A stretch of 64,000 bases of DNA from Escherichia coli O127:H6 str. E2348/69 (lineage in GTDB: Bacteria > Pseudomonadota > Gammaproteobacteria > Enterobacterales > Enterobacteriaceae), in assembly GCF_000026545.1 (NCBI RefSeq), contig NC_011601.1. One strand, given 5' to 3'. Shown here in pieces: positions 32,139 through 44,075 of this stretch (positions are counted from its first letter, which is position 1; every line of letters begins with the position of its first letter). Below the pieces are notes generated by a model. It saw nothing but the letters and a program-made list of their open reading frames with translations. It ran no database searches and was not told the DNA's origin. The position numbers and the translations under genes are program-made.

Positions 32139-32171
32139 AAAAAAGGGCCAGCCAATTGGCCAGCCCTTCTT
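32139..32171. terminator. Bidirectional hairpin terminator (yfiB 3' end; original rplS terminator displaced to attL)
   Basis: gggccagccaattggccagccc palindrome flanked by an A-run upstream and T-rich sequence downstream. Confidence 0.6.
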
Positions 32172-32196: not shown

Positions 32197-32210
32197 TTAG
32201 TTAAGACGCT
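32197..32210. repeat. attL core of the P2-like prophage remnant
   Basis: ttagttaagacgct repeated exactly at 43725-43738, where it overlaps the rplS stop codon. Confidence 0.7.
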
Positions 32211-32295
32211 TTTACATGATACCATTGATAAACATGCATTTTTCATTATAAACAGTTAGTTATATGTATCACTAGTGTAGTCAAGTGCAGCCATA

Positions 32296-32305
32296 AACAT
32301 GCTGT
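32296..32305. promoter_or_regulatory. Candidate integrase arm-type binding site (TGTGGACACT)
   Basis: Same motif as the two copies near the other prophage end (43630-43650); resembles the P2 Int arm-site consensus as I recall it. Confidence 0.4.
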
Positions 32306-32323
32306 GTGGGCAGATTGTGGACA

Positions 32324-33253
32324 CTACTTATTTCCCTGTCCAATCTTACCCGCAACTGCCTCGGTAAGCTTTACTAAGGTTTCAAGTTCATTTTTGTCTA
32401 ATTTTCTTGCTTCAATAATTTCAGTAGTCTGCCCTGATTCTAGTTTTCCAACTCTTGAGCTAAAATTAATTTTATCCAGAAGGTCTATCATATCGATATC
32501 TTTCTGGCTAGCCATTACAAGCTTTATAATGGCATAGCTTTCCTCACGTGAACGTTTTATTGCCTCGTAATAGCGAAACTCATCCATCGTAACCCGATAT
32601 TGCTTCAAAAAGAAAAATGCGATTAACTCCAAGAAAATCAACACGCCAAAATTAGGGAGAAGATACATTACCTTGGTTACCGCATCATCCTTAGCATCAA
32701 TTACATGTGATTGAGAATAGAAGAAACCTAATCCAACTATTGCAAAACAAACACCGACTAATAAATAAAGACTACCGCGAGAATATATGTTTTTCGCAAG
32801 ACCTTCAGAGCTATTAATCAAACCTTTAAGATAAAAATCCAGAGATTCATCTTCATCAGCAGCAGCCCTTTCCTCTTGAGCCTTCTTGAGTAGTTTTATC
32901 TCATTTATAATATCGACAATATTAAACATCGATGATTTGTCGACTGAATCACTCCCTGTAATTCTCATAAACATTCTTTGGATTGGAGACACACCATAGA
33001 TAATGGTGTAAACGATTACAAATGACACTGCGAATATTGACCTGATAAAGCTCGGCAAATGTGTAAGATCTGCTCTCGCACTGGGAAATAAATAATAAAA
33101 GGTTGAGTCTAATATCCCTGTAGCAAAAATTACATTTGCAACTAGAAAGACTGCACCTATCTCAACTAAATTATAAAAACCACGAGTGCGTACCCTAATG
33201 ACTTTGGCCTCGGTCATTCTTGGAGGTGTTTCGATGGTTGGCTCACTCATCAT
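32324..33253 (-). CDS. Hypothetical 4-TM membrane protein (309 aa), phage cargo of unknown function
   Basis: ORF with four hydrophobic segments and a charged, probably coiled-coil C-terminal region; visibly AT-rich; AGGA RBS; ATG overlaps the integrase stop (ATGATGAGTGA). Confidence 0.6.
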   Translation of the reverse strand: MMSEPTIETPPRMTEAKVIRVRTRGFYNLVEIGAVFLVANVIFATGILDSTFYYLFPSARADLTHLPSFIRSIFAVSFVIVYTIIYGVSPIQRMFMRITGSDSVDKSSMFNIVDIINEIKLLKKAQEERAAADEDESLDFYLKGLINSSEGLAKNIYSRGSLYLLVGVCFAIVGLGFFYSQSHVIDAKDDAVTKVMYLLPNFGVLIFLELIAFFFLKQYRVTMDEFRYYEAIKRSREESYAIIKLVMASQKDIDMIDLLDKINFSSRVGKLESGQTTEIIEARKLDKNELETLVKLTEAVAGKIGQGNK

Positions 33254-33602
33254 ATAATCCTGTTAAATTAGAAATAGGGTTAAGAGTTACAGCTTCTTCT
33301 AAATGATCTGGTGCAAAATGAGCGTATCTCATGGTTTCCCTAATGTTAGAATGGCCCAAGATTCGTTGCAGTACTAAAATGTTCCCACCATTCATCATAA
33401 AGTGACTCGCAAATGTATGACGTAACACATTCGTTTTTTGCCCTTCAGCTAACTCTATATCGGTCAGAGCGAGCATTTTCTTGAACTCCTGATAGCAGGG
33501 GTGGAACATTTTTCCCTGTAAAGGAGCCAACTCGTCATATAGCCACCGAGGGATCGGTACTGTACGATTCTTCTTTCCCTTGGTTTGGGAGAAGGCTCTG
33601 CA
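33243..33602 (-). pseudogene. Tyrosine recombinase (phage integrase) C-terminal fragment
   Basis: ...TKGKKNRTVPIPRWLYDELAPLQGKMFHPCYQEF...RHTFASHFMMNGGNILVLQRILGHSNIRETMRYAHFAPDHLEEAV; the N-terminal two-thirds of the gene is absent. Confidence 0.8.
33568..33593. other. Left inversion crossover site (pix/gix/cix-like, 26 bp)
   Basis: ttcttctttcccTTggtttgggagaa; inner half-site is the exact inverted copy of the inner half of the right site at 35454-35479. Confidence 0.6.
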
Positions 33603-34079
33603 TTACCTGTTGGCGTCCCTGTTCCGTGGCCTTCAGCCACACCGCCAACAGGCTGGCTGAAATGCAATGGTGCAGCTTTTTCTGCTGAAGAATACCCGGA
33701 ACTGGCAAAGGCTTATCCGGCAAATAAATTGCCTGATTTACGTGGTGAGTTTATTCGTGGCTGGGATGACGGACGGGGGATTGATACAGGTCGCTCTATT
33801 TTAAGTATTCAGGGGTATGCAACGGAGGATCATGCTCATGGATTACCGTCAAGATCCACGATTGTGACTGATGCAACGATTAATTTCTATTTTGATGAAA
33901 GCTGGGTAAATAGTGGCACTGACATTATCAAAAGAGGAAACACAAACGATGCCGGATTACCAGCACCGGATTATGGAACCTTTAAAACATATAAACAATC
34001 AGTGGCTGGTTTAGGTGCCGCAGCCTCAGAAACGCGTCCGCGTAATATTGCATTTAACTATATCGTGAGGTCAGCCTGA
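33585..34079 (+). CDS. Tail fibre C-terminal variable domain (one invertible-segment orientation)
   Basis: ...GLGEGSALPVGVPVPWPSATPPTGWLKCNGAAFSAEEYPELAKAYP..., tail-collar-like C-terminus; no constant N-terminal tail-fibre part upstream. Confidence 0.7.
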   Translation: MGEGSALPVGVPVPWPSATPPTGWLKCNGAAFSAEEYPELAKAYPANKLPDLRGEFIRGWDDGRGIDTGRSILSIQGYATEDHAHGLPSRSTIVTDATINFYFDESWVNSGTDIIKRGNTNDAGLPAPDYGTFKTYKQSVAGLGAAASETRPRNIAFNYIVRSA

Positions 34080-34681
34080 TGCATAAAGCAATATTAAATA
34101 GTGAGCTTATTGCAACAAAGGCAGGGGATGTTACCGTTTATAACTACGATGGTGAAACACGGGAATATATTTCCACGTCAACTGAATATCTTGCGGTTGG
34201 CGTCGGTATCCCGGCATGTTCTTGTTTAGATGCGCCAGTTACACATAAAGCTGGTTATGCAATCTGCCGTTCTGCAGATTTTAACTCATGGGAATATGTG
34301 CCAGACCATCGCGGTGAAATCATCTATAGCACAGAAACAGGAGAATCGAAAGAAATCACAGCTCCGGGTGATTATCCTGAAAATACAACCACTATCGCCC
34401 CGTTAACGCCATACGATGAATGGGATGGTGAGAAATGGGTAACAGATACTGTGGCACAGCATAGCGCCGCAGTAGGCGCGGCAGAAGCACAGCGTCAGTC
34501 ACTGATTGATAATGCAATGGCTTCCATTAGTCTGATTCAGCTGAAATTGCAGGCCGGACGGAATCTGACGCAGGCAGAAACCGCCCGACTTAACGCTGCG
34601 CTGGATTACATTGACGCGGTGACGGCAACAGATACCAGCACCGCGCCGGATGTCATCTGGCCTGAACTGCCGGAGGCGTAG
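34079..34681 (+). CDS. Tail fibre assembly protein (Tfa)
   Basis: 200-aa ORF with the typical Tfa C-terminus (...RLNAALDYIDAVTATDTSTAPDVIWPELPEA). Confidence 0.8.
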   Translation: MHKAILNSELIATKAGDVTVYNYDGETREYISTSTEYLAVGVGIPACSCLDAPVTHKAGYAICRSADFNSWEYVPDHRGEIIYSTETGESKEITAPGDYPENTTTIAPLTPYDEWDGEKWVTDTVAQHSAAVGAAEAQRQSLIDNAMASISLIQLKLQAGRNLTQAETARLNAALDYIDAVTATDTSTAPDVIWPELPEA

Positions 34682-35093
34682 GCCATTCAATATCTGGCGC
34701 ACCGGAAGTATCGACCAGTTCCAGTGCGTCCAGATAATCCAGCCACAAATTATATTGCGCCAGTTCCTCACCTTTCAGACGACCAATAGCCGCTTTACCA
34801 GGCCATTGTTTACTGTTCATATAATCGTTGGCCTGATTAATCAGTTGCTGCTTTTCAAGTTCGGCTGCAGCAATCTGTTCCTCATGTGTTGGTGGTGGAA
34901 TTTCAGTCCATGCAGGAAAACTATTTTCTCCAGCGATACGGATTTTTCCTTTCGGCGGTAATCCGGAAAACTCAATATACACTTGCTCATCAACTTCAAC
35001 AGCATCATCTGGCCATGAGTCAGCTTGAGTGTAATCCTCTTTCATCTCCAGCGGATAGAAAGAGTTTGTAGTCGCGGAATATATGTAATTCAT
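34653..35093 (-). CDS. Tail fibre assembly protein, alternative (opposite orientation)
   Basis: 146-aa ORF ending ...YNLWLDYLDALELVDTSGAPDIEWPTPPAVQAR, convergent with the other tfa. Confidence 0.8.
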   Translation of the reverse strand: MNYIYSATTNSFYPLEMKEDYTQADSWPDDAVEVDEQVYIEFSGLPPKGKIRIAGENSFPAWTEIPPPTHEEQIAAAELEKQQLINQANDYMNSKQWPGKAAIGRLKGEELAQYNLWLDYLDALELVDTSGAPDIEWPTPPAVQAR

Positions 35094-35114
35094 TTTTCAC
35101 TCCATATAGCTAAA

Positions 35115-35480
35115 TTAACAGCCTAACGCTAAAAATGAAGCGCCGAGGCCAGGAGTACTGGCTCTGGATATAAATTTAACCGGGTCGGGACTAAAACCTG
35201 CACAGGCAATATAACCAACAGCCCCGCTATCTGGTGTGTAGTCTTGTGAGACCAAAACACGCAGACATCTGTTTGGAAATGCAATCGGGAAATGGGTTAC
35301 TACATCCTGTGCAATGCCTGGTGCGCCGATTGAGCCCCACTGAAGAATAAAACCTGATGGAAATTTTTGATATCCAGTACCTGAAACAGAAAGCGTGAAG
35401 CTACCCATATCAGGTATCTGATTCGCCCCTGTCCCTACATTCCTTTTAGCCGCTTCTCCCAAACCAACGTTTAAGAAAAT
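35115..35480 (-). CDS. Alternative tail fibre C-terminal variable domain
   Basis: Reverse ORF 35115..35564 reads ...[17 protein letters not shown]... across the right crossover site; the part inside the invertible segment ends near 35480. Confidence 0.65.
35454..35479. other. Right inversion crossover site (pix/gix/cix-like, 26 bp)
   Basis: ttctcccaaaccAAcgtttaagaaaa, imperfect dyad, immediately upstream of the invertase gene. Confidence 0.65.
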
Positions 35481-35533
35481 GTAGTTTTCCCCCCTAGCTG
35501 GCATCATTTGGGCTTTTGCATGAGGGAAAACAA

Positions 35534-36112
35534 ATGCAGGTTGGCTATGTGCGCGTATCAACAAATGAACAAAATACCGCGCTACAGCGTGACGCGCTGG
35601 AACGGTCGGGATGTGAGCTAATTTTCGAGGATAAAATCAGCGGTAAATCGACAAACAGGCCAAGGTTAAATCGCGCACTCAGGCAACTTAATGCCGGTGA
35701 TACTCTCGTTGTCTGGAAGCTCGACAGGCTCGGGCGTAGCATGCGCCATCTTGTCTCTATGACTGAAGAGCTTCGCCAGCGAGGGGTTAATTTCAGAAGC
35801 CTGACCGACAGTATTGATACCTCAACCCCGATGGGGCGATTTTTCTTTCACATCATGGGCGCTCTTGCAGAAATGGAACGCGAGTTAATCGTCGAACGAA
35901 CCCGCGCCGGGCTGGATGCAGCCCGGGCACAAGGCAGGATCGGAGGTCGTAGGCCGAAGCTGACGCCTGATGAATGGGCTCAGGCTGGCCGGTTGATTGC
36001 GGCCGGAGAATCCCGACAGCGTGTTGCACTGATTTTTGATGTGGGCATATCGACGCTGTATAAAAAATTTCCGGCGACAAATCCCGTTGTGTCAGCCACC
36101 GGCGAACCCTGA
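35534..36112 (+). CDS. Serine-recombinase DNA invertase (Pin/Gin/Hin/Cin family)
   Basis: [38 protein letters not shown]... with catalytic Ser in the VRVST motif and a C-terminal HTH. Confidence 0.9.
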
Positions 36113-36176
36113 CAAATAGCCGCATACAGGCGTAAACCAGACAATATCACTCACCTCAACTAACGGAGTTAAACGG

Positions 36177-37364
36177 ATGAGTGATTATCATCACGGTGTC
36201 GAGGTCGTCGAAATTAACGACGGCACCCGCACAATCTCGACGGTATCAACGGCGGTCGTTGGCATGGTCTGCACAGCCAGTGATGCTGACGCCGGGGCTT
36301 TCCCTCTCAATGAGCCGGTGCTGATTACCAACCCACAAAGCGCCATCGCAAAAGCCGGTACTAAAGGTACCCTGGCAAAATCCTTACAGCTCATCGCTAA
36401 CCAGTCAAAACCGGTTGTCGTTGTTGTGCGTGTCGCGGAGGGTACCGGCGACGGCGAAGAGGCACAGGCGCAAACCATTTCTAACATCATCGGCACCACG
36501 AATGAGAATGGCAAATATACCGGGATGAAAGCGCTGTTAACGGCGAAAGCGGTCACCGGCGTGAAGCCACGTATTCTCGGTGTGCCGGGGCTCGATACTC
36601 AGGAGGTGGCGACCGCGCTTGTCTCCGTGGCTCAGAAGCTGCGCGCTTTCGCCTATGTCAGCGCGTGGGGCTGTAAAACCATTGCTGACGTTATCGCCTA
36701 CCGCGAAAACTTCAGCGCCCGTGAGCTCATGATTATCTGGCCTGACTTCCTCGGGTGGGATACCACGGCCAACGCGACCACAACCAGTTATGCAACAGCG
36801 ATCGCGTTGGGACTGCGCGCAAAAATCGACAATGATACAGGCTGGCATAAAACCCTGTCAAACGTCGGCATCAATGGCGTCACCGGTATCAGTGCGTCGG
36901 TCTTCTGGGATTTGCAGGAATCTGGCACTGATGCCGACCTGCTGAATGAGGCCGGTGTTACGACGCTGATTCGTGCCGATGGTTTCCGCTTCTGGGGTAA
37001 CCGTAATTGCTCCGATGACCCGCTGTTTCAGTTTGAGAACTACACCCGCACCGCACAGGTCATAGCCGACACAATAGCCGAGGGGCATATGTGGGCGAAC
37101 GATAAGCCCATCACCGCGACGTTGATTCGCGACATTATCGACGGCATCAACGCGAAATTCCGCGAGCTGAAAACCGGCGGTTACATCATCGATGCGACGT
37201 GCTGGTTTGACGAAGAGGCCAACAGTAAAGAAACCCTGAAAGCCGGGAAACTGTTTATCGATTATGACTATACGCCGGTGCCGCCACTCGAACACCTGAC
37301 CTTACGCCAGCGCATTACTGATAAATATCTGGCGAATCTTATCTCGTCCGTCAACAGCAAATAA
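36177..37364 (+). CDS. Contractile tail sheath protein (P2 gpFI-like)
   Basis: 395-aa ORF MSDYHHGVEVVEINDGTRTISTVSTAVVGMVCTASDAD..., order and size as P2 FI. Confidence 0.9.
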   Translation: MSDYHHGVEVVEINDGTRTISTVSTAVVGMVCTASDADAGAFPLNEPVLITNPQSAIAKAGTKGTLAKSLQLIANQSKPVVVVVRVAEGTGDGEEAQAQTISNIIGTTNENGKYTGMKALLTAKAVTGVKPRILGVPGLDTQEVATALVSVAQKLRAFAYVSAWGCKTIADVIAYRENFSARELMIIWPDFLGWDTTANATTTSYATAIALGLRAKIDNDTGWHKTLSNVGINGVTGISASVFWDLQESGTDADLLNEAGVTTLIRADGFRFWGNRNCSDDPLFQFENYTRTAQVIADTIAEGHMWANDKPITATLIRDIIDGINAKFRELKTGGYIIDATCWFDEEANSKETLKAGKLFIDYDYTPVPPLEHLTLRQRITDKYLANLISSVNSK

Positions 37365-37376
37365 GGAGCCTGACAA

Positions 37377-37895
37377 ATGGCATTACCGCGCAAGCTCAAA
37401 CTCATGAACCTGTTTATCGATGGGGTGAGTTATCTCGGCGTCGTGCAGTCCGTCACGCTGCCGAAATTAACCCGCAAGCTCGAGAACTATCGCGGCGGCG
37501 GGATGAATGGTTCGGCACCGGTCGACCTCGGCCTCGATGACGATGCGCTGTCGGCTGAAATCTCTCTCGGCGGCTTCCCCGATGACGCTATCTGGTCGTT
37601 ATACGCTGCCACCGGCGCGGCCTCCGTACCGCTACGTTTTGCCGGGTCTTACCAGCGTGATGACACCGGCGAGACCGTGCCGGTTGAGGTTGTTCTCCGT
37701 GGCCGTCAGAAAGAAATCGACCTCGGTGAAGCCAAACAGGGCGAAGACACCGAGTCGAAAATCGCTCTCGCGTGTACCTATTTCAAGCTGACGATGAATG
37801 GCTCGGAACTGGTGGAAATCGACACCGTGAACCTCATCGAAAAAGTGAACGGCACCGACATGCTCGAGGCGCACCGACAAAATATCGGCCTGTAA
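37377..37895 (+). CDS. Tail tube protein (P2 gpFII-like)
   Basis: 172-aa ORF MALPRKLKLMNLFIDGVSYLGVVQSVTLPKL... Confidence 0.9.
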   Translation: MALPRKLKLMNLFIDGVSYLGVVQSVTLPKLTRKLENYRGGGMNGSAPVDLGLDDDALSAEISLGGFPDDAIWSLYAATGAASVPLRFAGSYQRDDTGETVPVEVVLRGRQKEIDLGEAKQGEDTESKIALACTYFKLTMNGSELVEIDTVNLIEKVNGTDMLEAHRQNIGL

Positions 37896-37957
37896 TTTAT
37901 GCCCCGGTCAGCATGGCTGGCCGGGCATCCTGAAACCAGAATTTAACGAGAAATATC

Positions 37958-38230
37958 ATGGATAAAACTAACGAAAATATCGTCACTCTGATTAAACCCA
38001 TTAAGCGCGGTGAGCAGGTTATTACTGACGTCACCCTGTTAAAACCGTGTGCCGGAACCCTTCGCGGTGTCAGCCTGGCATCAGTCGCAAACTCTGACGT
38101 CGATGCGCTGATTAAAGTGCTGCCGCGCATGACCATGCCGTCGCTGACCGAGCAGGAAGCCGCCGCACTGGAGCTGCCCGACCTGCTGTCGTTTGCCGGT
38201 AAGGTGGTCGGTTTTTTGTCACCGAGTTAG
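37958..38230 (+). CDS. Tail assembly chaperone gpE
   Basis: 90-aa ORF between FII and T; contains the slippery heptamer T-TTT-TTG at 38212-38218. Confidence 0.8.
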   Translation: MDKTNENIVTLIKPIKRGEQVITDVTLLKPCAGTLRGVSLASVANSDVDALIKVLPRMTMPSLTEQEAAALELPDLLSFAGKVVGFLSPS

Positions 38231-38391
38231 GCGGCGTAATCTTCCCGCAAAAACTCACGGTCGATGACCTGATGGCTGACATAGCGGTAATTTTCCACTG
38301 GTCGCCATCAGACCTGTATCCCATGAGCCTGACCGAACTCGTCAACTGGCGCGAAAAAGCGCTACAGCGAAGCGGAAACACGAATGAGTAA
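37958..38391 (+). CDS. gpE+E' extended product via programmed -1 frameshift (predicted)
   Basis: -1 frame after TTTTTTG is open to TAA at 38389-38391, overlapping the start of the tape-measure gene. Confidence 0.5.
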
Positions 38392-40813
38392 TAACCTCAA
38401 ACTCGAAGTGCTGCTGAAAGCTGTCGACCAGGCGACCCGACCCTTTAAAGCGATCCAGACGGCGAGCAAATCGCTGTCTGGCGATATCCGCACGACTCAG
38501 CAATCCCTGCGTGATTTGAATGGTCAGGCATCGAAAATCGACGGTTTTCGCAAAACCAGCGCACAACTGGCGGTAACCGGACAGGCACTGGAAAAGGCAA
38601 AACAGGAAGCCGCCGAGCTGGCGGTGCAGTTTAAAAACACGGAACGGCCAACGGCGGCACAGGCCAGAGTGCTGGAATCAGCAAAGCGTTCGGCTGAAGG
38701 GTTACAGGCAAAATATAACAGCCTCACCCAATCGGTGAAGCGGCAACAGACCGAGCTCGGCAAAGCGGGGATTAATACGCGCAATCTGTCGAATGATGAA
38801 AGCCGCCTGAAAAACTCTATCAATGAAACTACCGCACAACTTAACCGCCAGCGTGAAGCACTGGCGCGGGTCAGCGCGCAACAGGCAAAACTCAGCGCAG
38901 TACAAAAACGCTATCAGGCAGGAAAGGCACTGGCTGGAAATGCGGCATCGATGGGCGCTGCCGGGATAGGCATGGCAACGACCGGAGCGCTTGCCGGTGT
39001 TGCACTGATGAAGCCCGGTTATGATTTTGCTCAGAAAAACTCTGAGTTACAGGCCGTTCTCGGTGTCGGTAAAGACTCAGCTGATATGGTGGCGCTCCGC
39101 AAACAGGCGCGCCAGCTCGGTGACAACACCGCCGCGTCGGCTGATGATGCTGCCGGTGCTCAGATTATTATTGCAAAGGCTGGCGGCGATGCTGCGGCTA
39201 TTCAGGCCGCTACCCCCGTAACACTCGATATGGCGCTCGCAAACCGTCGAACGATGGAAGAGAACGCCGGGTTATTGATGGGGATGCGCTCTGCCTTCCA
39301 GCTTTCAAACGATAAGGTCGCCCATATCGGTGATGTTCTGTCGATGACGATGAACAAAACCGCCGCCGACTTTGACGGCCTGAGTGATGCGCTGACTTAT
39401 GCCGCGCCGGTGGCGAAAAATGCCGGGGTCAGCATCGAAGAAACAGCCGCAATGGTCGGCGCACTGCATGACGCCAAAATTACGGGATCGATGGCGGGTA
39501 CGGGGAGCCGTGCCGTATTAAGTCGCCTGCAGGCTCCAACGGGCAAAGCGTATGACGCCATTAAAGAGCTCGGCGTCAAAACGGCTGATGGTAAGGGGAA
39601 CACACGTCCAATATTTACCATCCTGAAAGAAATGCAGCGGAGTTTTGATAAAAACAACCTCGGCACCGGCCAGCGTGCCGAATATATGAAAACCATTTTC
39701 GGTGAAGAGGCCAGCTCGTCGGCTGCGGTACTCATGACCGCTGCCTCGAGCGGGAAATTAGACCAGCTTACCGCTTCCCTTAAAGCATCGGATGGCAAAA
39801 CCGCTGAGCTGGTGAAGGTCATGCAGGATAACCTCGGCGGCGATTTTAAAGAGTTTCAGTCTGCGTATGAAGCGGTAGGAACCGACCTGTTTGACCAGCA
39901 AGAGTCATCATTAAGAAAGCTGGTACAAACGACGACAGGGTATGTATTGAGGCTCGATAGCTGGATCCAAAAGAACAAATCTCTTGCCACCACGCTGGGT
40001 GTCATTACGGCGGCAGCTGTCGGTATTGTGGGGATGATTGGTGCCATTGGCCTTGTATCGTGGCCGGTAATTACTGGCATTAACGCCATCATTTCGGCGG
40101 CTGGTGCGCTTGGTGCGGTCTTTACGACAATCAGTGGCGGGGTCATTGCGGCTATTGGTGCTATTACGTGGCCTGTCGTGGCGGTAGCGGCGGCTGTTGT
40201 CGCTGGCGCGCTGCTTATCCGTAAATACTGGGAGCCTGTCAGCGCATTCTTTGCCGGTGTGGTCGAGGGGCTCATGAGTGCCTTTGCGCCGGTCGGGGAA
40301 ATGTTCGCCCCGCTGGCACCCATTTTCGACGGTCTCGGCGAAAAACTTCGCGGCGTCTGGCAGTGGTTTAAAGACCTGATAGCGCCGGTGAAAGCGACTC
40401 AGGACACGCTCAACAGTTGTCGTGATGTTGGGGTTATGTTCGGTCAGACGCTGGCCGATGCACTGCTGATGCCGCTTAACGCCTTTAACAAGCTGCGAAG
40501 CGGGATTGACTGGGTGCTCGAAAAACTCGGCATTATCAACAAAGAATCCAGCTCACTTGACCAGACTGCGGCGAAAGCCAATGCAGCGACGCAGAACGGT
40601 TACAGCCCGGCAATCAGCGCATACAACAGCTATCAGCCGGTCACGGCACCCGCCGGTAAAACCTACATCGACCAGAGTCGGCCAATCTATCAAATCACCG
40701 TGCCGGGCAATGGTATGCCGGGAGATCGGTTGGGTAATGATTTGCAGGATGCATTAGAAAAGTATGAGCGCGAGAAGCGCGCCAAAGCCCGCGCAAGCAT
40801 GATGCATGACTAA
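38384..40813 (+). CDS. Tail tape measure protein (P2 gpT-like)
   Basis: 809-aa ORF with coiled-coil N-terminus and Gly/Ala-rich hydrophobic central region. Confidence 0.9.
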   Translation: MSNNLKLEVLLKAVDQATRPFKAIQTASKSLSGDIRTTQQSLRDLNGQASKIDGFRKTSAQLAVTGQALEKAKQEAAELAVQFKNTERPTAAQARVLESAKRSAEGLQAKYNSLTQSVKRQQTELGKAGINTRNLSNDESRLKNSINETTAQLNRQREALARVSAQQAKLSAVQKRYQAGKALAGNAASMGAAGIGMATTGALAGVALMKPGYDFAQKNSELQAVLGVGKDSADMVALRKQARQLGDNTAASADDAAGAQIIIAKAGGDAAAIQAATPVTLDMALANRRTMEENAGLLMGMRSAFQLSNDKVAHIGDVLSMTMNKTAADFDGLSDALTYAAPVAKNAGVSIEETAAMVGALHDAKITGSMAGTGSRAVLSRLQAPTGKAYDAIKELGVKTADGKGNTRPIFTILKEMQRSFDKNNLGTGQRAEYMKTIFGEEASSSAAVLMTAASSGKLDQLTASLKASDGKTAELVKVMQDNLGGDFKEFQSAYEAVGTDLFDQQESSLRKLVQTTTGYVLRLDSWIQKNKSLATTLGVITAAAVGIVGMIGAIGLVSWPVITGINAIISAAGALGAVFTTISGGVIAAIGAITWPVVAVAAAVVAGALLIRKYWEPVSAFFAGVVEGLMSAFAPVGEMFAPLAPIFDGLGEKLRGVWQWFKDLIAPVKATQDTLNSCRDVGVMFGQTLADALLMPLNAFNKLRSGIDWVLEKLGIINKESSSLDQTAAKANAATQNGYSPAISAYNSYQPVTAPAGKTYIDQSRPIYQITVPGNGMPGDRLGNDLQDALEKYEREKRAKARASMMHD

Positions 40814-40824
40814 GGAGACTGATT

Positions 40825-41289
40825 ATGATGCTGGCATTAGGTATGTTTGTTTTTATGCGTCAGACGCTGCCCTACCAGAGCATGCAGCGCAGCGCGGATT
40901 ATAGCTGGGCGTCAAACTCTCGCATCGGGAAGCGTGACGCTTTTCAGTATCTCGGCGAGGGGGAAGATAAAATCACCCTGAGCGGTGACCTGTATCCTGA
41001 GCTGACCGGCGGTAAGCTCACGATGCTGGCGCTTTATGCAATGGCTGAACAGGGGCGCGCATGGCCGCTTATCTCTGGCTCAGGCTGGATTTACGGGATG
41101 TTTGTTGTCAGTAATGTCTCGGAGACCGGCACGGTATTTTTTGAGGATGGGACGCCACGAAAAATCAGCTTCACCCTGTCACTGACCCGTGTCGATGAGT
41201 CGCTCGCCGCGGTGTATGGCGATATTGGAAAACAGGCCGAAAGTCTGGTCGGGAAAGCTGGCGATCTGCTGTCGATGGTGGGGGCGTAA
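40825..41289 (+). CDS. Tail protein gpU-like
   Basis: 154-aa ORF MMLALGMFVFMRQTLPYQSMQRSADYSWAS... following T. Confidence 0.85.
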   Translation: MMLALGMFVFMRQTLPYQSMQRSADYSWASNSRIGKRDAFQYLGEGEDKITLSGDLYPELTGGKLTMLALYAMAEQGRAWPLISGSGWIYGMFVVSNVSETGTVFFEDGTPRKISFTLSLTRVDESLAAVYGDIGKQAESLVGKAGDLLSMVGA

Positions 41290-41291
41290 TC

Positions 41292-42464
41292 ATGCTGGAT
41301 ATTATCACCGGCGCGGGTGCCACGCTGACGCCCGACTTTATGCTGACACTGGAAAGCAAAGATATCACCGGCAATATCAGTGACCGGCTGATTAACCTCT
41401 CGATGACGGACAATCGGGGTTTTGAGGCCGACCAGCTCTACATCGAGCTCGACGATACTGACGGTCTGGTCGCATTGCCGATTCGCGGTGCGGTGCTGTC
41501 GCTGTATCTCGGGTGGAAAGGTTTCTCTCTGGTCAGCAAGGGGCGATTTACCGTCGATGAGGTAGAGCACCGGGGGGCGCCGGATACGGTAACCATTCGC
41601 GCCCGGGGTGCGGATTTTCGCGGGACGCTTAATTCCCGTCGTGAGGAGTCATGGCATGACACCACGCTCGGCGCAATCGTCAGCTCGATAGCTGAGCGGA
41701 ACAAGTTAACGGCCAGCGTCACTGATTCTCTTGCGGGGATCCAGATTCCGCATATCGACCAGTCTCAGGAATCCGACGCCGTTTTCCTGACTCGCCTCGC
41801 AGAACGCAACGGCGGTGCGGTCTCAGTGAAAGCGGGTAGATTGCTGATGCTCAAAGCGGGAAGCGGTACCACTGCCAGTGGAAAAGCTATTCCTCAAATT
41901 ACCATCCAGCGCGGTGACGGTGACCGGCATCAGTTTGCCATTGCCGACCGTGGCGCTTACACCGGCGTAACCGCTAAGTGGCTGCACACTAAAGACCCGA
42001 AACCGGCGAAACAAAAGCAGACAGTGAAGCTGAAACGTAAGCCCAAAGAGCAACACCTCCGGGCGCTACAGCACCCGAAAGCAAAACCAGTGAGCAGTAA
42101 AGTCACGGCCAAAAAGCAAAAAGAGCAGGAAGCCCGCGAGGGTGAATACATGGCCGGTGAGGCTGACAACGTTTTCGCGCTGACGACCATTTACGCGACA
42201 AAGGCGCAAGCGATGCGTGCAGCTCAGGCGAAGTGGGATAAATTGCAGCGTGGGGTTGCGGAGTTCTCCATTATGTTAGCGACCGGCCGCGAGGATATTT
42301 ACCCCGAAACGCCGGTCAGGGTCTCAGGCTTTAAGAGCGTTATAGACGAGCAAGCATGGATAATCAGCAGGGTGACCCATAATCTCGGTGGGAATGGCTT
42401 CACAACGGCTGTAGAGCTTGAGGTGATGCTTTCGGATGTAGAATATGACACCGACGAATCTTGA
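41292..42464 (+). CDS. Tail protein gpD-like (late control gene D)
   Basis: 390-aa ORF following U. Confidence 0.85.
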   Translation: MLDIITGAGATLTPDFMLTLESKDITGNISDRLINLSMTDNRGFEADQLYIELDDTDGLVALPIRGAVLSLYLGWKGFSLVSKGRFTVDEVEHRGAPDTVTIRARGADFRGTLNSRREESWHDTTLGAIVSSIAERNKLTASVTDSLAGIQIPHIDQSQESDAVFLTRLAERNGGAVSVKAGRLLMLKAGSGTTASGKAIPQITIQRGDGDRHQFAIADRGAYTGVTAKWLHTKDPKPAKQKQTVKLKRKPKEQHLRALQHPKAKPVSSKVTAKKQKEQEAREGEYMAGEADNVFALTTIYATKAQAMRAAQAKWDKLQRGVAEFSIMLATGREDIYPETPVRVSGFKSVIDEQAWIISRVTHNLGGNGFTTAVELEVMLSDVEYDTDES

Positions 42465-42540
42465 TTATACAAACAAAACTTGCAAATGTAAGATTCAAGT
42501 TTATTATCCCCCTCAAGTCAGCAAGGAGAGGGAAGAAATT

Positions 42541-42759
42541 ATGATGCACTGTCCGCTATGTCAGGATGCAGCACACGCACGATCAAGCCGGTACCTGAGC
42601 ACTGAAACGAAAGAGCGCTACCACCAGTGCCAGAACATCAACTGCGGTTGCACTTTCGTCACCCACGAGAGCCTTGCTCGTTTTATCGTGAAGCCAGGAG
42701 AAATTGAACCCGCCCCACCCCACCCGTCTAAATACCAACAACATCAGCTCTGGCTTTAA
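42541..42759 (+). CDS. ogr: Late-gene transcription activator Ogr (zinc finger)
   Basis: MMHCPLCQDAAHARSSRYLSTETKERYHQCQNINCGCTF... with a Cys4 arrangement; ATG at 42541 preceded by aaggagag. Confidence 0.9.
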   Translation: MMHCPLCQDAAHARSSRYLSTETKERYHQCQNINCGCTFVTHESLARFIVKPGEIEPAPPHPSKYQQHQLWL

Positions 42760-42796
42760 ATCAAAGGCCTGCTTTGCAGGCCTTCTTGTATCAAAC

Positions 42797-43519
42797 TTAG
42801 ATTGGTAATGAAAAAGCTATCGCCTTGCAGATATGTTGCTTTGTTAACGCAGGATGTGTTGAAGCAAAAAGCGATAAAAAGCTTTTAGCTTCAACCGAAT
42901 CATCATTAAGCGAAATATTATCTTTGATGAATGGATGAAGTGCGATTCCAGCGCTCATAGATAACGGCACATAGTTGATGAATATATCTTCTTTTGTGAG
43001 ACCTAGCTGGTTTGCTTGTGCTTCAAATGAATTAGCATCTAAATAATCACGTATACGTTCTTTGGCCTCTGGTCGGAGTCTCGATTCTTGACGCGGCAGA
43101 GAAAGCATCTTATCAATATCTCCCCATGAGATAGGAACCTCAAAATAGCCACCACCTTCTTCCTCTAGAGGTGCCGGGAAATTCACATAAAAATAGTTTT
43201 TTTGCTGTGTAGGGTCGTTCATGGACTGACGATGATAGTTATAAATACTTCTAATACGGTTGGCCTTGTTATGATGCCGAGCATTTCGAATAACAAGCAT
43301 CATTAATAATTCAGGTTTCAAATACCAGTCAGGCTCTAATCCATTGCTTTGCATGTTGTCATACAAATTATGAAAAGCATTAAGTTGTGTATTCAGGCCC
43401 GATTCTAAATTGCCAATTGCTTCAGCACGATCAATAGCCAACAAACGCTGTAGTGACCAGTTAGACTCTAATAAAACCCGAAAGGCCTGTGCAAGATCTT
43501 CAAAAGAGTGGGAAAGCAT
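42797..43519 (-). CDS. Hypothetical soluble protein (240 aa), phage cargo; possible HEPN-like Rx4H motif
   Basis: AT-rich ORF with AAGGA RBS between ogr and attR; contains ...LVIRNARHHNKANR... (R-x4-H pattern). Confidence 0.6.
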   Translation of the reverse strand: MLSHSFEDLAQAFRVLLESNWSLQRLLAIDRAEAIGNLESGLNTQLNAFHNLYDNMQSNGLEPDWYLKPELLMMLVIRNARHHNKANRIRSIYNYHRQSMNDPTQQKNYFYVNFPAPLEEEGGGYFEVPISWGDIDKMLSLPRQESRLRPEAKERIRDYLDANSFEAQANQLGLTKEDIFINYVPLSMSAGIALHPFIKDNISLNDDSVEAKSFLSLFASTHPALTKQHICKAIAFSLPI

Positions 43520-43629
43520 CCTTTACGTCCTTATACGCACATTCATGAGATTTCAGTGTAAACCAAAAGTACTAAACTAACAGTATCAGGTAGATGATGG
43601 ATAGATGGGCTGGCAAGTATTCTATCTGC

Positions 43630-43650
43630 GTGGACACTCTATGGACACTC
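43630..43650. promoter_or_regulatory. Candidate integrase arm-type sites (two direct copies of TGGACACTC)
   Basis: gtggacactctatggacactc; same motif as 32296-32305 at the other prophage end. Confidence 0.4.
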
Positions 43651-43686
43651 AAAATAAAAAAGGGGTTAGCTCTACGCTAACCCCTT
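43651..43686 (-). terminator. Rho-independent terminator now serving rplS (prophage-encoded)
   Basis: aggggttagctctacgctaacccct hairpin with T-run on the transcribed strand, about 40 bp downstream of the rplS stop, on the prophage side of attR. Confidence 0.7.
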
Positions 43687-43724
43687 GTTTTATAACACGC
43701 TTTGGATGTGGCGTGAACGCGTTA

Positions 43725-44075
<351 letters not shown>

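What the first reader, a model, noticed from the sequence alone, without database searches (positions are those of the whole stretch)
42797..43519. AT-rich 240-aa ORF between ogr and attR with a possible HEPN-like Rx4H motif
In P2 itself nothing lies between ogr and attP, so this ORF looks like acquired cargo. It has a good RBS (AAGGA), low GC, and the segment LVIRNARHHNKANR fits the R-x4-6-H pattern seen in HEPN RNases (Abi-type toxins, HepT). The motif alone is weak evidence. Transcripts reading through from the rpsP-rimM-trmD-rplS operon would enter this gene unless the prophage-encoded hairpin at 43651-43686 terminates efficiently.
Basis: inference. Interest (0 to 1): 0.75.

Follow-up and report, generated by a model that had tools for sequence, protein, structure and literature searches.

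The report
Orphan prophage gene, probable solo HEPN RNase
A 240-residue gene wedged into the end of a decayed P2-like prophage of E. coli E2348/69 belongs to a small, unnamed, horizontally mobile protein family that probably encodes a stand-alone RNA-cutting (HEPN-type) enzyme, possibly used for anti-phage defence; nothing has been shown experimentally.

Summary
The ORF is real: 42797-43519, minus strand, 240 aa, GC 0.39, annotated only as a hypothetical protein. It lies in an 892-nt insertion between ogr and the attP arm. P2 and PSP3 have only about 70-100 nt there and no gene.

The family is rare: 96 clusters at 50% identity among 1.84 billion proteins, and 16 of 5426 E. coli genomes. It is always about 240 aa and has no conserved neighbour. 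It moves as a single gene into P2-like prophages, lambdoid prophages, Vibrio integron cassettes, a defence island and an RtcB RNA-repair operon.

Verdict: acquired cargo is confirmed. A solo HEPN-like RNase with a defence role is the best explanation (about 0.55) but is unproven. The rplS terminator supplied by the phage looks strong, so read-through is probably minor.

The parts
42797..43519 (-). 240-aa ORF (WP_000948614.1) including its stop codon; founding E. coli member of an unnamed ~240-aa family
   Evidence: Purifying selection: pN 0.11-0.31 against pS 0.74-0.86.
43220..43519 (-). N-terminal four-helix bundle (residues 1-100), the HEPN-like domain. Model helices: 2-26, 31-58, 69-82, 92-99.
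43271..43288 (-). Codons for R78-N79-A80-R81-H82-H83, the candidate RNxxxH catalytic motif at the end of helix 3
   Evidence: R78 is invariant; N79, H82 and H83 are each 96% conserved in 47 diverse members. Position checked against the HEPN definition.
42800..43219 (-). C-terminal alpha/beta domain (residues 101-240). No match outside the family. Inferred sensor, regulatory or oligomerisation domain.
43528..43532 (-). Shine-Dalgarno AAGGA, 8 nt upstream of the ATG
   Evidence: read. The N-terminus MLSHSFEDLAQ aligns with the start of the homologues.
42764..42784 (.). GC-rich hairpin shared by the convergent ogr and the ORF; a likely bidirectional terminator
   Evidence: -15.4 kcal/mol on the plus strand, -17.0 on the minus strand
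42761..43652 (.). 892-nt cargo segment, absent from the PSP3-type phages that share the flanking D-ogr and attP sequences
   Evidence: blastn against PSP3
43630..43648 (+). Direct repeats GTGGACAC / TGGACAC resembling the P2 Int arm-type sites (TGTGGACAC in P2). They place the ORF inside the phage, between ogr and the att arm.
   Evidence: sequence, compared with the annotated P2 arm sites
43650..43686 (-). Phage-supplied intrinsic terminator for rplS: 11-bp stem plus U-tract
   Evidence: conserved in PSP3, SW9 and SEN1 attP
43725..43738 (.). attR core TTAGTTAAGACGCT, overlapping the rplS stop codon; its attL twin is at 32197-32210
42541..42759 (+). ogr (late-gene activator), the last conserved phage gene before the cargo

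Best explanation
The ORF most likely encodes a self-contained ('solo') HEPN-type ribonuclease that a P2-like phage carries as a moron gene.

**Proposed mechanism**
- The N-terminal four-helix bundle supplies the metal-independent RNxxxH active site (R78, N79, H83).
- As in other HEPN enzymes, this site would become competent only in a particular dimer or oligomer arrangement.
- The family-specific C-terminal alpha/beta domain keeps the enzyme silent until a signal, most plausibly a component of an infecting phage, switches it on.
- The enzyme then cuts tRNA, mRNA or rRNA, leaving 2',3'-cyclic phosphate ends. Translation stops and the infection aborts.

**Shown**
- The gene is real and under purifying selection.
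- It moves as a single gene between mobile elements.
- The motif is the conserved core of the family and sits at the HEPN position in a confident model.

**Inferred**
- RNase activity, auto-inhibition, the trigger and the defence phenotype.
For: **Motif and fold**
1. R78 is invariant, and N79, H82 and H83 are each 96% conserved across 47 members down to ~20% identity. The other conserved residues are also polar: R14, E18, D30, E33, N37, H50, D54, D134.
2. The AF2 model has pLDDT 93.4 and pTM 0.91. [quoted passage not shown] This is where Anantharaman et al. 2013 (PMC3710099) place Rx4-6H, with N/D/H after the R, an insert between helices 2 and 3, and a conserved acidic residue in helix 2.

**Single-gene mobility**
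4. The gene recurs after ogr in several P2-likes with different att sites, and between D and ogr in another lineage.
5. In Enterobacter lambdoid prophages it sits between a DNA methylase and DinI.
6. In Vibrio parahaemolyticus it is an integron cassette bracketed by attC-like repeats.
7. It also occurs next to a GmrSD_N + HEPN_RiboL-PSP gene pair and in other cassette-like arrays.
8. No neighbour is conserved across contexts.

**Link to RNA**
9. In Rufibacter the gene starts 40 nt after RtcB in a RlaP-RlaP-RtcB string, beside TROVE/Ro, Hen1 and Pnkp. RtcB joins the kind of RNA ends that HEPN enzymes generate.

**Selection and precedent**
10. pN is 0.11-0.31 against pS 0.74-0.86. GC stays at 31-42% in every host, which fits recent horizontal transfer.
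11. HepS of Gifsy-1 is a precedent: a solo HEPN prophage protein with no partner, silent until triggered, and an anticodon nuclease (PMC13043305).
Against: - No sequence-based method links the family to any HEPN family:
  - Pfam on the protein, on 47 members and on 40 N-domains;
  - PADLOC, NCBIfam and PHROGs;
  - PDB profile searches;
  - a profile search with the N-domain, which returns only family members;
  - hhalign against one RiboL-PSP HEPN sequence, which aligns only 'RN', probability 0.2%.
- Foldseek against the PDB finds nothing (E >= 0.14).
- The Ex3[K/R] element common in HEPN families is absent.
- H50/D54/E18/H82 could equally line a metal site.
- The RtcB association is a single locus.
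- In some Phycisphaerales-type contigs the gene sits among housekeeping genes (PNPase, DnaA, L27), not obviously in a mobile element.
Confidence: 0.55

Rival explanations
1. The protein is a helical-bundle protein that is not a HEPN RNase. For example, it could be a metal-dependent hydrolase or a ligand-binding protein that uses H50/D54/E18/H82/H83. It would still be a mobile accessory gene, with a different chemistry and possibly a non-defence benefit.
For: - There is no profile or Foldseek link to HEPN.
- Several conserved His, Asp and Glu residues lie on helices 1-3.
- The Ex3[K/R] element is lacking.
Against: - The strictly conserved element is R-N-x-x-H-H, with the R invariant. That pattern is typical of HEPN, not of di-iron or His-triad bundles.
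- Its position at the end of helix 3 fits HEPN exactly.
- The contexts are defence-like or RNA-repair-like.
Confidence: 0.2
2. The protein is an RNA-processing or RNA-repair accessory factor rather than an immune effector. It would work with RtcB-type ligases or on stable RNAs, and would be carried by phages for their own or the host's RNA metabolism.
For: - The gene is probably co-transcribed with RlaP-RlaP-RtcB in Rufibacter, beside Ro/TROVE, Hen1 and Pnkp.
- Its neighbours in planctomycete-type contigs are housekeeping genes: PNPase, DnaA, L27.
Against: - The RtcB link is one locus out of about 40 examined.
- Most occurrences are in prophage moron sites, integron cassettes and a defence island.
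- The patchy distribution (16 of 5426 E. coli genomes, 11 loci in 100,044 species genomes) and the foreign GC content argue against a housekeeping role.
Confidence: 0.1
3. The protein is the toxin of a toxin-antitoxin pair whose antitoxin went unnoticed. The antitoxin could be a small protein, an antisense RNA or a repeat RNA.
For: - Many HEPN proteins (HepT, RnlA, LsoA) are TA toxins.
- The best structural matches are HepT toxins.
Against: - No MNT or other conserved neighbour is present in any context.
- The Vibrio copy is a one-gene integron cassette with about 180 nt upstream.
- The E. coli flanks hold only a terminator, Int arm repeats and a shared hairpin.
- Rfam finds no meaningful RNA there; the only match (STnc490, E = 0.85, 18.6 bits against a 56-bit gathering score) is chance-level.
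Confidence: 0.05
4. The gene serves the phage directly, as a counter-defence, lysogeny-control or superinfection-exclusion factor unrelated to RNA cleavage.
For: - It sits at the end of the late operon next to ogr, and in the lambdoid nin-like region.
- These positions also hold non-defence morons.
Against: - It is present in chromosomal integron cassettes, rhizobial megaplasmids and non-phage islands.
- It has been kept intact in an 11.5-kb prophage remnant that has lost its integrase, head and replication genes.
- It is absent from all 50,697 GenBank phage records.
Confidence: 0.05

Closest known systems
HepS, the solo HEPN abortive-infection protein of Salmonella prophage Gifsy-1 (Sargen et al., Nature 2026, PMC13043305; PDB 9OIJ/9OIK)
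   Same: - A single gene with no partner.
- About 200-240 aa.
- Sits at a prophage accessory-gene site. One branch of the present family occupies the equivalent replication-to-Q region of lambdoid prophages.
- Carries a canonical Rx4H motif.
- It would have to be silent until triggered.
   Different: - No detectable sequence similarity: PDB profile searches at E <= 10 return no HEPN entry.
- The motif is at R78-H83, not R100-H105.
- Here the bundle is N-terminal and followed by a ~140-residue alpha/beta domain.
- Tetramer formation, the tail-tip trigger and anticodon-nuclease activity are known for HepS and untested here.
HepT toxins of HEPN/MNT (HepT-MntA) toxin-antitoxin systems (PDB 5YEP, 7AE2, 8XDJ) and their relatives YutE and HI0074
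   Same: - They carry an RNxxxH-type motif.
   Different: - No MNT antitoxin gene is adjacent in any context.
- HepT is about 130-140 aa with no extra domain.
- There is no sequence-profile similarity.
Single-gene lactococcal-type Abi proteins with HEPN domains (AbiD/AbiF = Abi_2, AbiJ, AbiU2, AbiV), including an AbiU2-HEPN integron cassette of Vibrio mimicus reported to protect against T4 and T7 (bioRxiv 10.64898/2026.03.17.712381)
   Same: - Stand-alone HEPN proteins on mobile elements, including integron cassettes.
- Thought to act by abortive infection.
   Different: - None of the corresponding Pfam or PADLOC models matches.
- The domain order and the C-terminal domain are different.
P2 accessory exclusion genes old, tin and Z/fun, and the defence hotspots of P2-like phages (Rousset et al. 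2022, PMC9122126; bioRxiv 10.64898/2026.02.27.708500)
   Same: - Non-essential, AT-rich cargo of P2-like prophages.
- Expected to act against other phages.
   Different: - The published hotspots I read are gpA-portal, int-att, int-primase and within the late genes.
- The D/ogr-att junction used here is not named among them.
- The gene has no similarity to old, tin or fun.

Membership tests
HEPN superfamily (definition of Anantharaman et al. 2013, PMC3710099) | Four-helix up-down bundle of ~100-120 residues | tested here: met
   [not shown]
HEPN superfamily | Conserved Rx4-6H motif with a polar residue (N/D/H) straight after the R | tested here: met
   R78 is 100% conserved, N79 96% and H83 96% in 47 diverse members. 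They are invariant in the 40-sequence N-domain alignment.
HEPN superfamily | [quoted passage not shown] | tested here: met
   Helix 3 is residues 69-82 in the model. R78 is in its last turn and H83 is the first loop residue (against the text). This rests on a predicted model, not a solved structure.
HEPN superfamily | [quoted passage not shown] | tested here: met
   Residues 59-68 form a loop with a short helical turn between helices 2 and 3. The insert is short.
HEPN superfamily | Second conserved acidic residue upstream (helix 2), typically within Ex3[K/R] | tested here: inconclusive
   D30, E33 and D54 in helix 2 and E18 in helix 1 are 94-98% conserved. There is no Ex3[K/R]; helix 1 has the reverse, R14x3E18. 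Proximity to the motif could not be checked without coordinates.
HEPN superfamily | Statistically significant sequence or profile similarity to an established HEPN family | tested here: not met
   - Pfam: no HEPN family at E <= 0.1 for the protein, for 47 members or for 40 N-domains.
- PDB profiles: no HEPN entry at E <= 10.
- hhalign against one RiboL-PSP HEPN sequence: probability 0.2%.
- HHpred against full profile libraries was not available.
HEPN superfamily | Structure-search hits that single out HEPN domains | tested here: inconclusive
   [not shown]
HEPN superfamily | Metal-independent RNase activity giving 2',3'-cyclic phosphate ends; active site formed across a dimer | not testable with these tools
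   Needs biochemistry, or at least a multimer model with coordinates.
Anti-phage defence system (abortive-infection type) | Match to a catalogued defence protein | tested here: not met
   PADLOC-DB v2.0.0 gives 0 families at E <= 1. Newer catalogues were not available.
Anti-phage defence system (abortive-infection type) | Residence in mobile-element hotspots or defence islands, patchy distribution, foreign composition | tested here: met
   - Prophage moron sites, integron cassettes and a GmrSD/HEPN island.
- Present in 16 of 5426 E. coli genomes.
- GC is 31-42% in all hosts.
Anti-phage defence system (abortive-infection type) | Protection against phage infection | not testable with these tools
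   No paper found for the accession. The V. parahaemolyticus integron screen (Getz et al. 2025) is not in the searchable library.
Type II/VII toxin-antitoxin (HepT-MntA-like) | Adjacent cognate antitoxin gene | tested here: not met
   No conserved neighbour in about 40 loci. The Vibrio copy is a one-gene cassette.

The most novel reading that the evidence does not exclude
This is the founding member of an undescribed family of solo HEPN abortive-infection nucleases with a new C-terminal sensor domain. The family circulates as a one-gene module among P2-like and lambdoid prophages, chromosomal integrons and RNA-repair islands. It would also mark the D/ogr-att junction as an additional cargo or defence hotspot of P2-like phages, one not named in the hotspot surveys I read.
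Probability: 0.4. Interest if true: 0.6.

Novelty: new variant of a known kind. Interest (0 to 1): 0.5.

Why it matters
**If the prediction holds**
- The family adds a compact (240 aa), partner-less RNase immune module to the growing class of solo HEPN defences such as HepS.
- It would bring a different sensor domain and so probably a different trigger.
- Its carriage by two unrelated prophage types and by integron cassettes makes it a tractable case of how one-gene defences are exchanged among mobile elements.
- It suggests that the ogr-att end of P2-like phages should be scanned for cargo alongside the known hotspots.
- The protein is intact in a decayed prophage of the prototype EPEC strain E2348/69, so testing is straightforward.

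**If the prediction fails**
- It remains a conserved orphan fold with an obvious polar active site and no annotation.

Tried and rejected
**Searches that gave nothing**
- Pfam, PADLOC, NCBIfam and PHROGs on the full protein gave nothing meaningful. The best were a PHROG portal hit at E = 0.014 and PPR_2 at E = 0.39, both treated as noise.
- Pfam on every member of two alignments gave nothing at E <= 0.001.
- PDB profile searches returned only coiled-coil or ArsR-type noise. The SmtB hit at E = 0.04 is inconsistent with the long-helix model.
- Foldseek against the PDB gave no hit.
- Foldseek against AFDB50 returned only 28 'Uncharacterized protein' family members.
- A profile search with the N-domain alone, meant to reach annotated distant relatives, returned only family fragments.
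- hhalign against a single RiboL-PSP HEPN sequence was uninformative.

**HepS comparison**
- I tried to recover the HepS sequence from the Gifsy-1 record for a direct comparison. The LT2 Gifsy-1 record has no ORF with R100/H105, and the paper's supplements are not held. The comparison therefore rests on the absence of 9OIJ among the PDB hits.

**Apparent fusions**
- The N-terminal extensions in P0125 and P0212 are low-complexity mis-called starts, not fusions.

**Promoter**
- A sigma-70 promoter for the ORF was not found at normal stringency. The only candidate is weak: TGTCCA-17-TAGAAT, 8 of 12 matches, overlapping the Int arm repeats.

**A name rejected**
- The UniRef name 'DUF2612' given to one homologue is not supported by the Pfam scans.

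Full report
**1. What is in the sequence**

The window is the E. coli E2348/69 chromosome (100% identity). An ORF of 240 codons runs on the minus strand from ATG 43519 to stop 42797. RefSeq calls it WP_000948614.1, 'hypothetical protein'. GC is 0.385-0.40 over the ORF, against 0.53-0.59 in the adjacent tail genes. An AAGGA lies 8 nt before the ATG, and the N-terminus aligns with the start of all homologues.

The neighbours are:
- gpD at 41292-42464(+);
- ogr at 42541-42759(+);
- a GC-rich hairpin shared by the two convergent genes at 42764-42784;
- the ORF;
- two direct repeats GTGGACAC/TGGACAC at 43630-43648, which resemble the annotated Int arm sites of P2;
- a hairpin plus T-run at 43650-43686;
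- rplS at 43725-44072(-).

**2. The prophage**

A 14-nt exact repeat, TTAGTTAAGACGCT, occurs at 32197-32210 and at 43725-43738. The second copy covers the rplS stop codon. Between these cores lie only 11.5 kb:
- an unannotated 309-aa membrane-like ORF;
- a 95-aa C-terminal stump of a tyrosine recombinase;
- tail-fibre fragments with a DNA invertase;
- sheath, tube, tape measure, U, D and ogr;
- the ORF.

So this is a decayed P2-like prophage. Strain PCN033 carries a fuller version at the same site with the same ORF.

The hairpin and core at 43653-43739 are 85-90% identical to the attP region of PSP3, SW9, SEN1 and other Eganvirus phages. The terminator that now follows rplS is therefore phage-borne. 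The native-looking terminator is stranded at attL, at 32140-32171.

In P2 only about 100 nt separate ogr from the attP core, and they hold a terminator, an Int arm and an IHF site. In PSP3 71 nt separate pag/ogr from the segment shared with the window. Here 892 nt (42761-43652) are inserted. The 'acquired cargo' observation is therefore confirmed, and more strongly than a comparison with P2 alone allows.

**3. The protein family**

- No Pfam, PADLOC, NCBIfam or meaningful PHROG match exists.
- A search of 5.8 billion proteins finds 188 relatives. Nearly all are 237-245 aa and named 'hypothetical'.
- An exhaustive HMMER search of 1.84 billion cluster representatives finds only 96.
- Members occur in Enterobacterales, Vibrio, Shewanella, Halomonas, methanotrophs, Alphaproteobacteria, Planctomycetes, Bacteroidota and Paenibacillus.
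- The family is rare:
  - 16 of 5426 complete E. coli genomes, all at least 99.7% identical and all at rplS;
  - none of 50,697 GenBank phage records;
  - 14 IMG/VR contigs;
  - 4 plasmids, all large rhizobial or Paraburkholderia replicons;
  - 11 loci in one genome each of 100,044 species.
- Synonymous sites are saturated (pS 0.74-0.86) while pN is 0.11-0.31, so the protein is under purifying selection.
- The gene is 31-42% GC in every host.

**4. Context**

The gene travels alone. I found it in these settings:
- after ogr in P2-like prophages with other attachment sites (Buttiauxella, several IMG/VR contigs), and between D and ogr in another lineage;
- between a 662-aa DNA methylase and DinI in Enterobacter lambdoid prophages;
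- as a cassette of the Vibrio parahaemolyticus chromosomal integron, bracketed by ~122-nt attC-like repeats that begin TAACAAA and end GCGTTA;
- in other cassette-like arrays;
- beside a GmrSD_N + HEPN_RiboL-PSP pair in Halomonas;
- in an IS-rich patch;
- in Rufibacter, 40 nt downstream of RtcB in a RlaP-RlaP-RtcB string, next to TROVE/Ro, Hen1 and Pnkp.

Immediate neighbours in eleven further genomes share nothing. A few planctomycete-type contigs place the gene among housekeeping genes. Apparent N-terminal fusions are mis-called starts. There is thus no partner gene, which argues against a classical toxin-antitoxin pair.

**5. Is it HEPN?**

A bare Rx4-6H is not informative: it occurs in 74% of shuffles of this protein, and R[NDH]xxxH in 6.6%. 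Conservation is what singles the motif out. In 47 members down to about 20% identity, R78 is the only invariant residue, and N79, H82 and H83 are each kept in 96%. In the 40-sequence N-domain alignment all four are invariant.

The AlphaFold2 model built on 30 homologues is confident, with pLDDT 93.4 and pTM 0.91. It shows an N-terminal bundle (helices 2-26, 31-58, 69-82, 92-99) followed by an alpha/beta domain. R78-H83 lies in the last turn of helix 3 and the first loop residue.

Anantharaman et al. 2013 define the HEPN domain as follows:
- a 100-120-residue four-helix up-down bundle;
- a polar N/D/H after the R;
- an insert between helices 2 and 3;
- often a conserved acidic residue in helix 2.

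All of these are met except the usual Ex3[K/R] form of the acidic element.

The negative evidence is substantial:
- Foldseek against the PDB finds nothing;
- Foldseek against AFDB50 finds only uncharacterised family members;
- no profile method connects the family to any HEPN family.

I therefore treat HEPN as the best-supported reading, at about 0.55, and not as established membership.

**6. How it most likely works**

By analogy with characterised solo HEPN defences, I propose an auto-inhibited RNase. The closest analogue is HepS of Gifsy-1, which has no partner, is constitutively made, is an inactive tetramer until a phage tail-tip protein binds, and then acts as an anticodon nuclease. In the present protein the family-specific C-terminal domain would sense a phage product and license the RNxxxH site. 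The result would be RNA cleavage and abortive infection.

The Rufibacter RtcB linkage fits RNA ends that RtcB can reseal. It is also reminiscent of the reported link between Gifsy-1 nuclease genes and induction of the Salmonella rtc operon (title and abstract of PMC9879122). Activity, trigger, oligomeric state and phenotype are all inferred.

**7. Expression**

- The intervening hairpin has an 11-bp stem with 6 G-C pairs. It folds at -21.6 kcal/mol (z = -5.7) and is followed by UUUUUUAUUUU. That is the signature of an efficient intrinsic terminator.
- Only a weak promoter candidate (TGTCCA-17-TAGAAT) lies between the hairpin and the ORF.
- The source of transcription is therefore unresolved. 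Low constitutive expression would fit the model.

**8. Novelty**

I found no paper naming the protein. The two P2 hotspot surveys I read do not list the D/ogr-att junction. The most likely outcome is a new, sequence-orphan family within a known kind of system (solo HEPN defence), with a new domain architecture. It is moderately interesting and easy to test, but it is not a conceptual surprise.

Noticed in passing
window 32324-33253 (-): A 309-aa ORF with apparent hydrophobic (membrane-like) stretches lies between the attL core and the truncated integrase. It has no Pfam or PADLOC match. The int-att interval is listed as a minor defence hotspot of P2-like phages in a 2026 preprint, so this may be a second cargo gene of the same remnant.
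   Followed up: partly
window 32197-43738: The 'prophage' is an 11.5-kb remnant. The integrase is reduced to a 95-aa C-terminal stump (33243-33530), and the head, replication and lysis genes are absent, yet the tail genes, ogr and the 240-aa ORF are intact. E. coli PCN033 has a fuller copy at the same site, which also carries a DUF4062 gene inserted among the late genes (L049 694-2037).
   Followed up: partly
window 32140-32171 (-) and 43650-43686 (-): The native-looking rplS terminator (14-pair stem plus T-run) is displaced to the attL side. The phage supplies a replacement terminator directly after rplS. PSP3-like phages carry the same hairpin and rplS-like core in attP.
   Followed up: yes
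window 34079-36112: Oppositely oriented tail-fibre and tail-fibre-assembly gene fragments lie next to a 198-aa Hin/Cin-type DNA invertase (35516-36112). This looks like an invertible host-range segment within the remnant.
   Followed up: no
window 11934-12040: A perfect hexanucleotide array, (CCGGGT) x 17.8, lies inside a transposase-like ORF (11644-12348) and gives long RV/GS repeats in translation.
   Followed up: partly
L010 2718-16723 (Rufibacter immobilis): A dense RNA-repair island reads: WYL regulator, two RlaP nucleotidyltransferases, RtcB, the 240-aa family member, DUF5131, TROVE/Ro, Hen1 and Pnkp. It is the only locus found that ties the family to RNA repair.
   Followed up: partly
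L043 5965-7988 (Amylibacter marinus): A distant family member (26% identity) is followed by a 348-aa AAA ATPase that matches NCBIfam 'anti-phage ATPase IteA' (E = 1e-65, below the curated cutoff). This hints that a divergent branch may work with an ATPase partner.
   Followed up: no
L015-L017 (metagenomic P2-like prophages): In this lineage the gene is inserted between gpD and ogr rather than after ogr. That indicates independent acquisitions at the same end of P2-like genomes.
   Followed up: partly
L040 and L019 (Phycisphaerales-type contigs): Family members lie near PNPase, DnaA and ribosomal protein L27 with no obvious mobile-element genes. This suggests vertical inheritance, or a different role, in that clade.
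   Followed up: no
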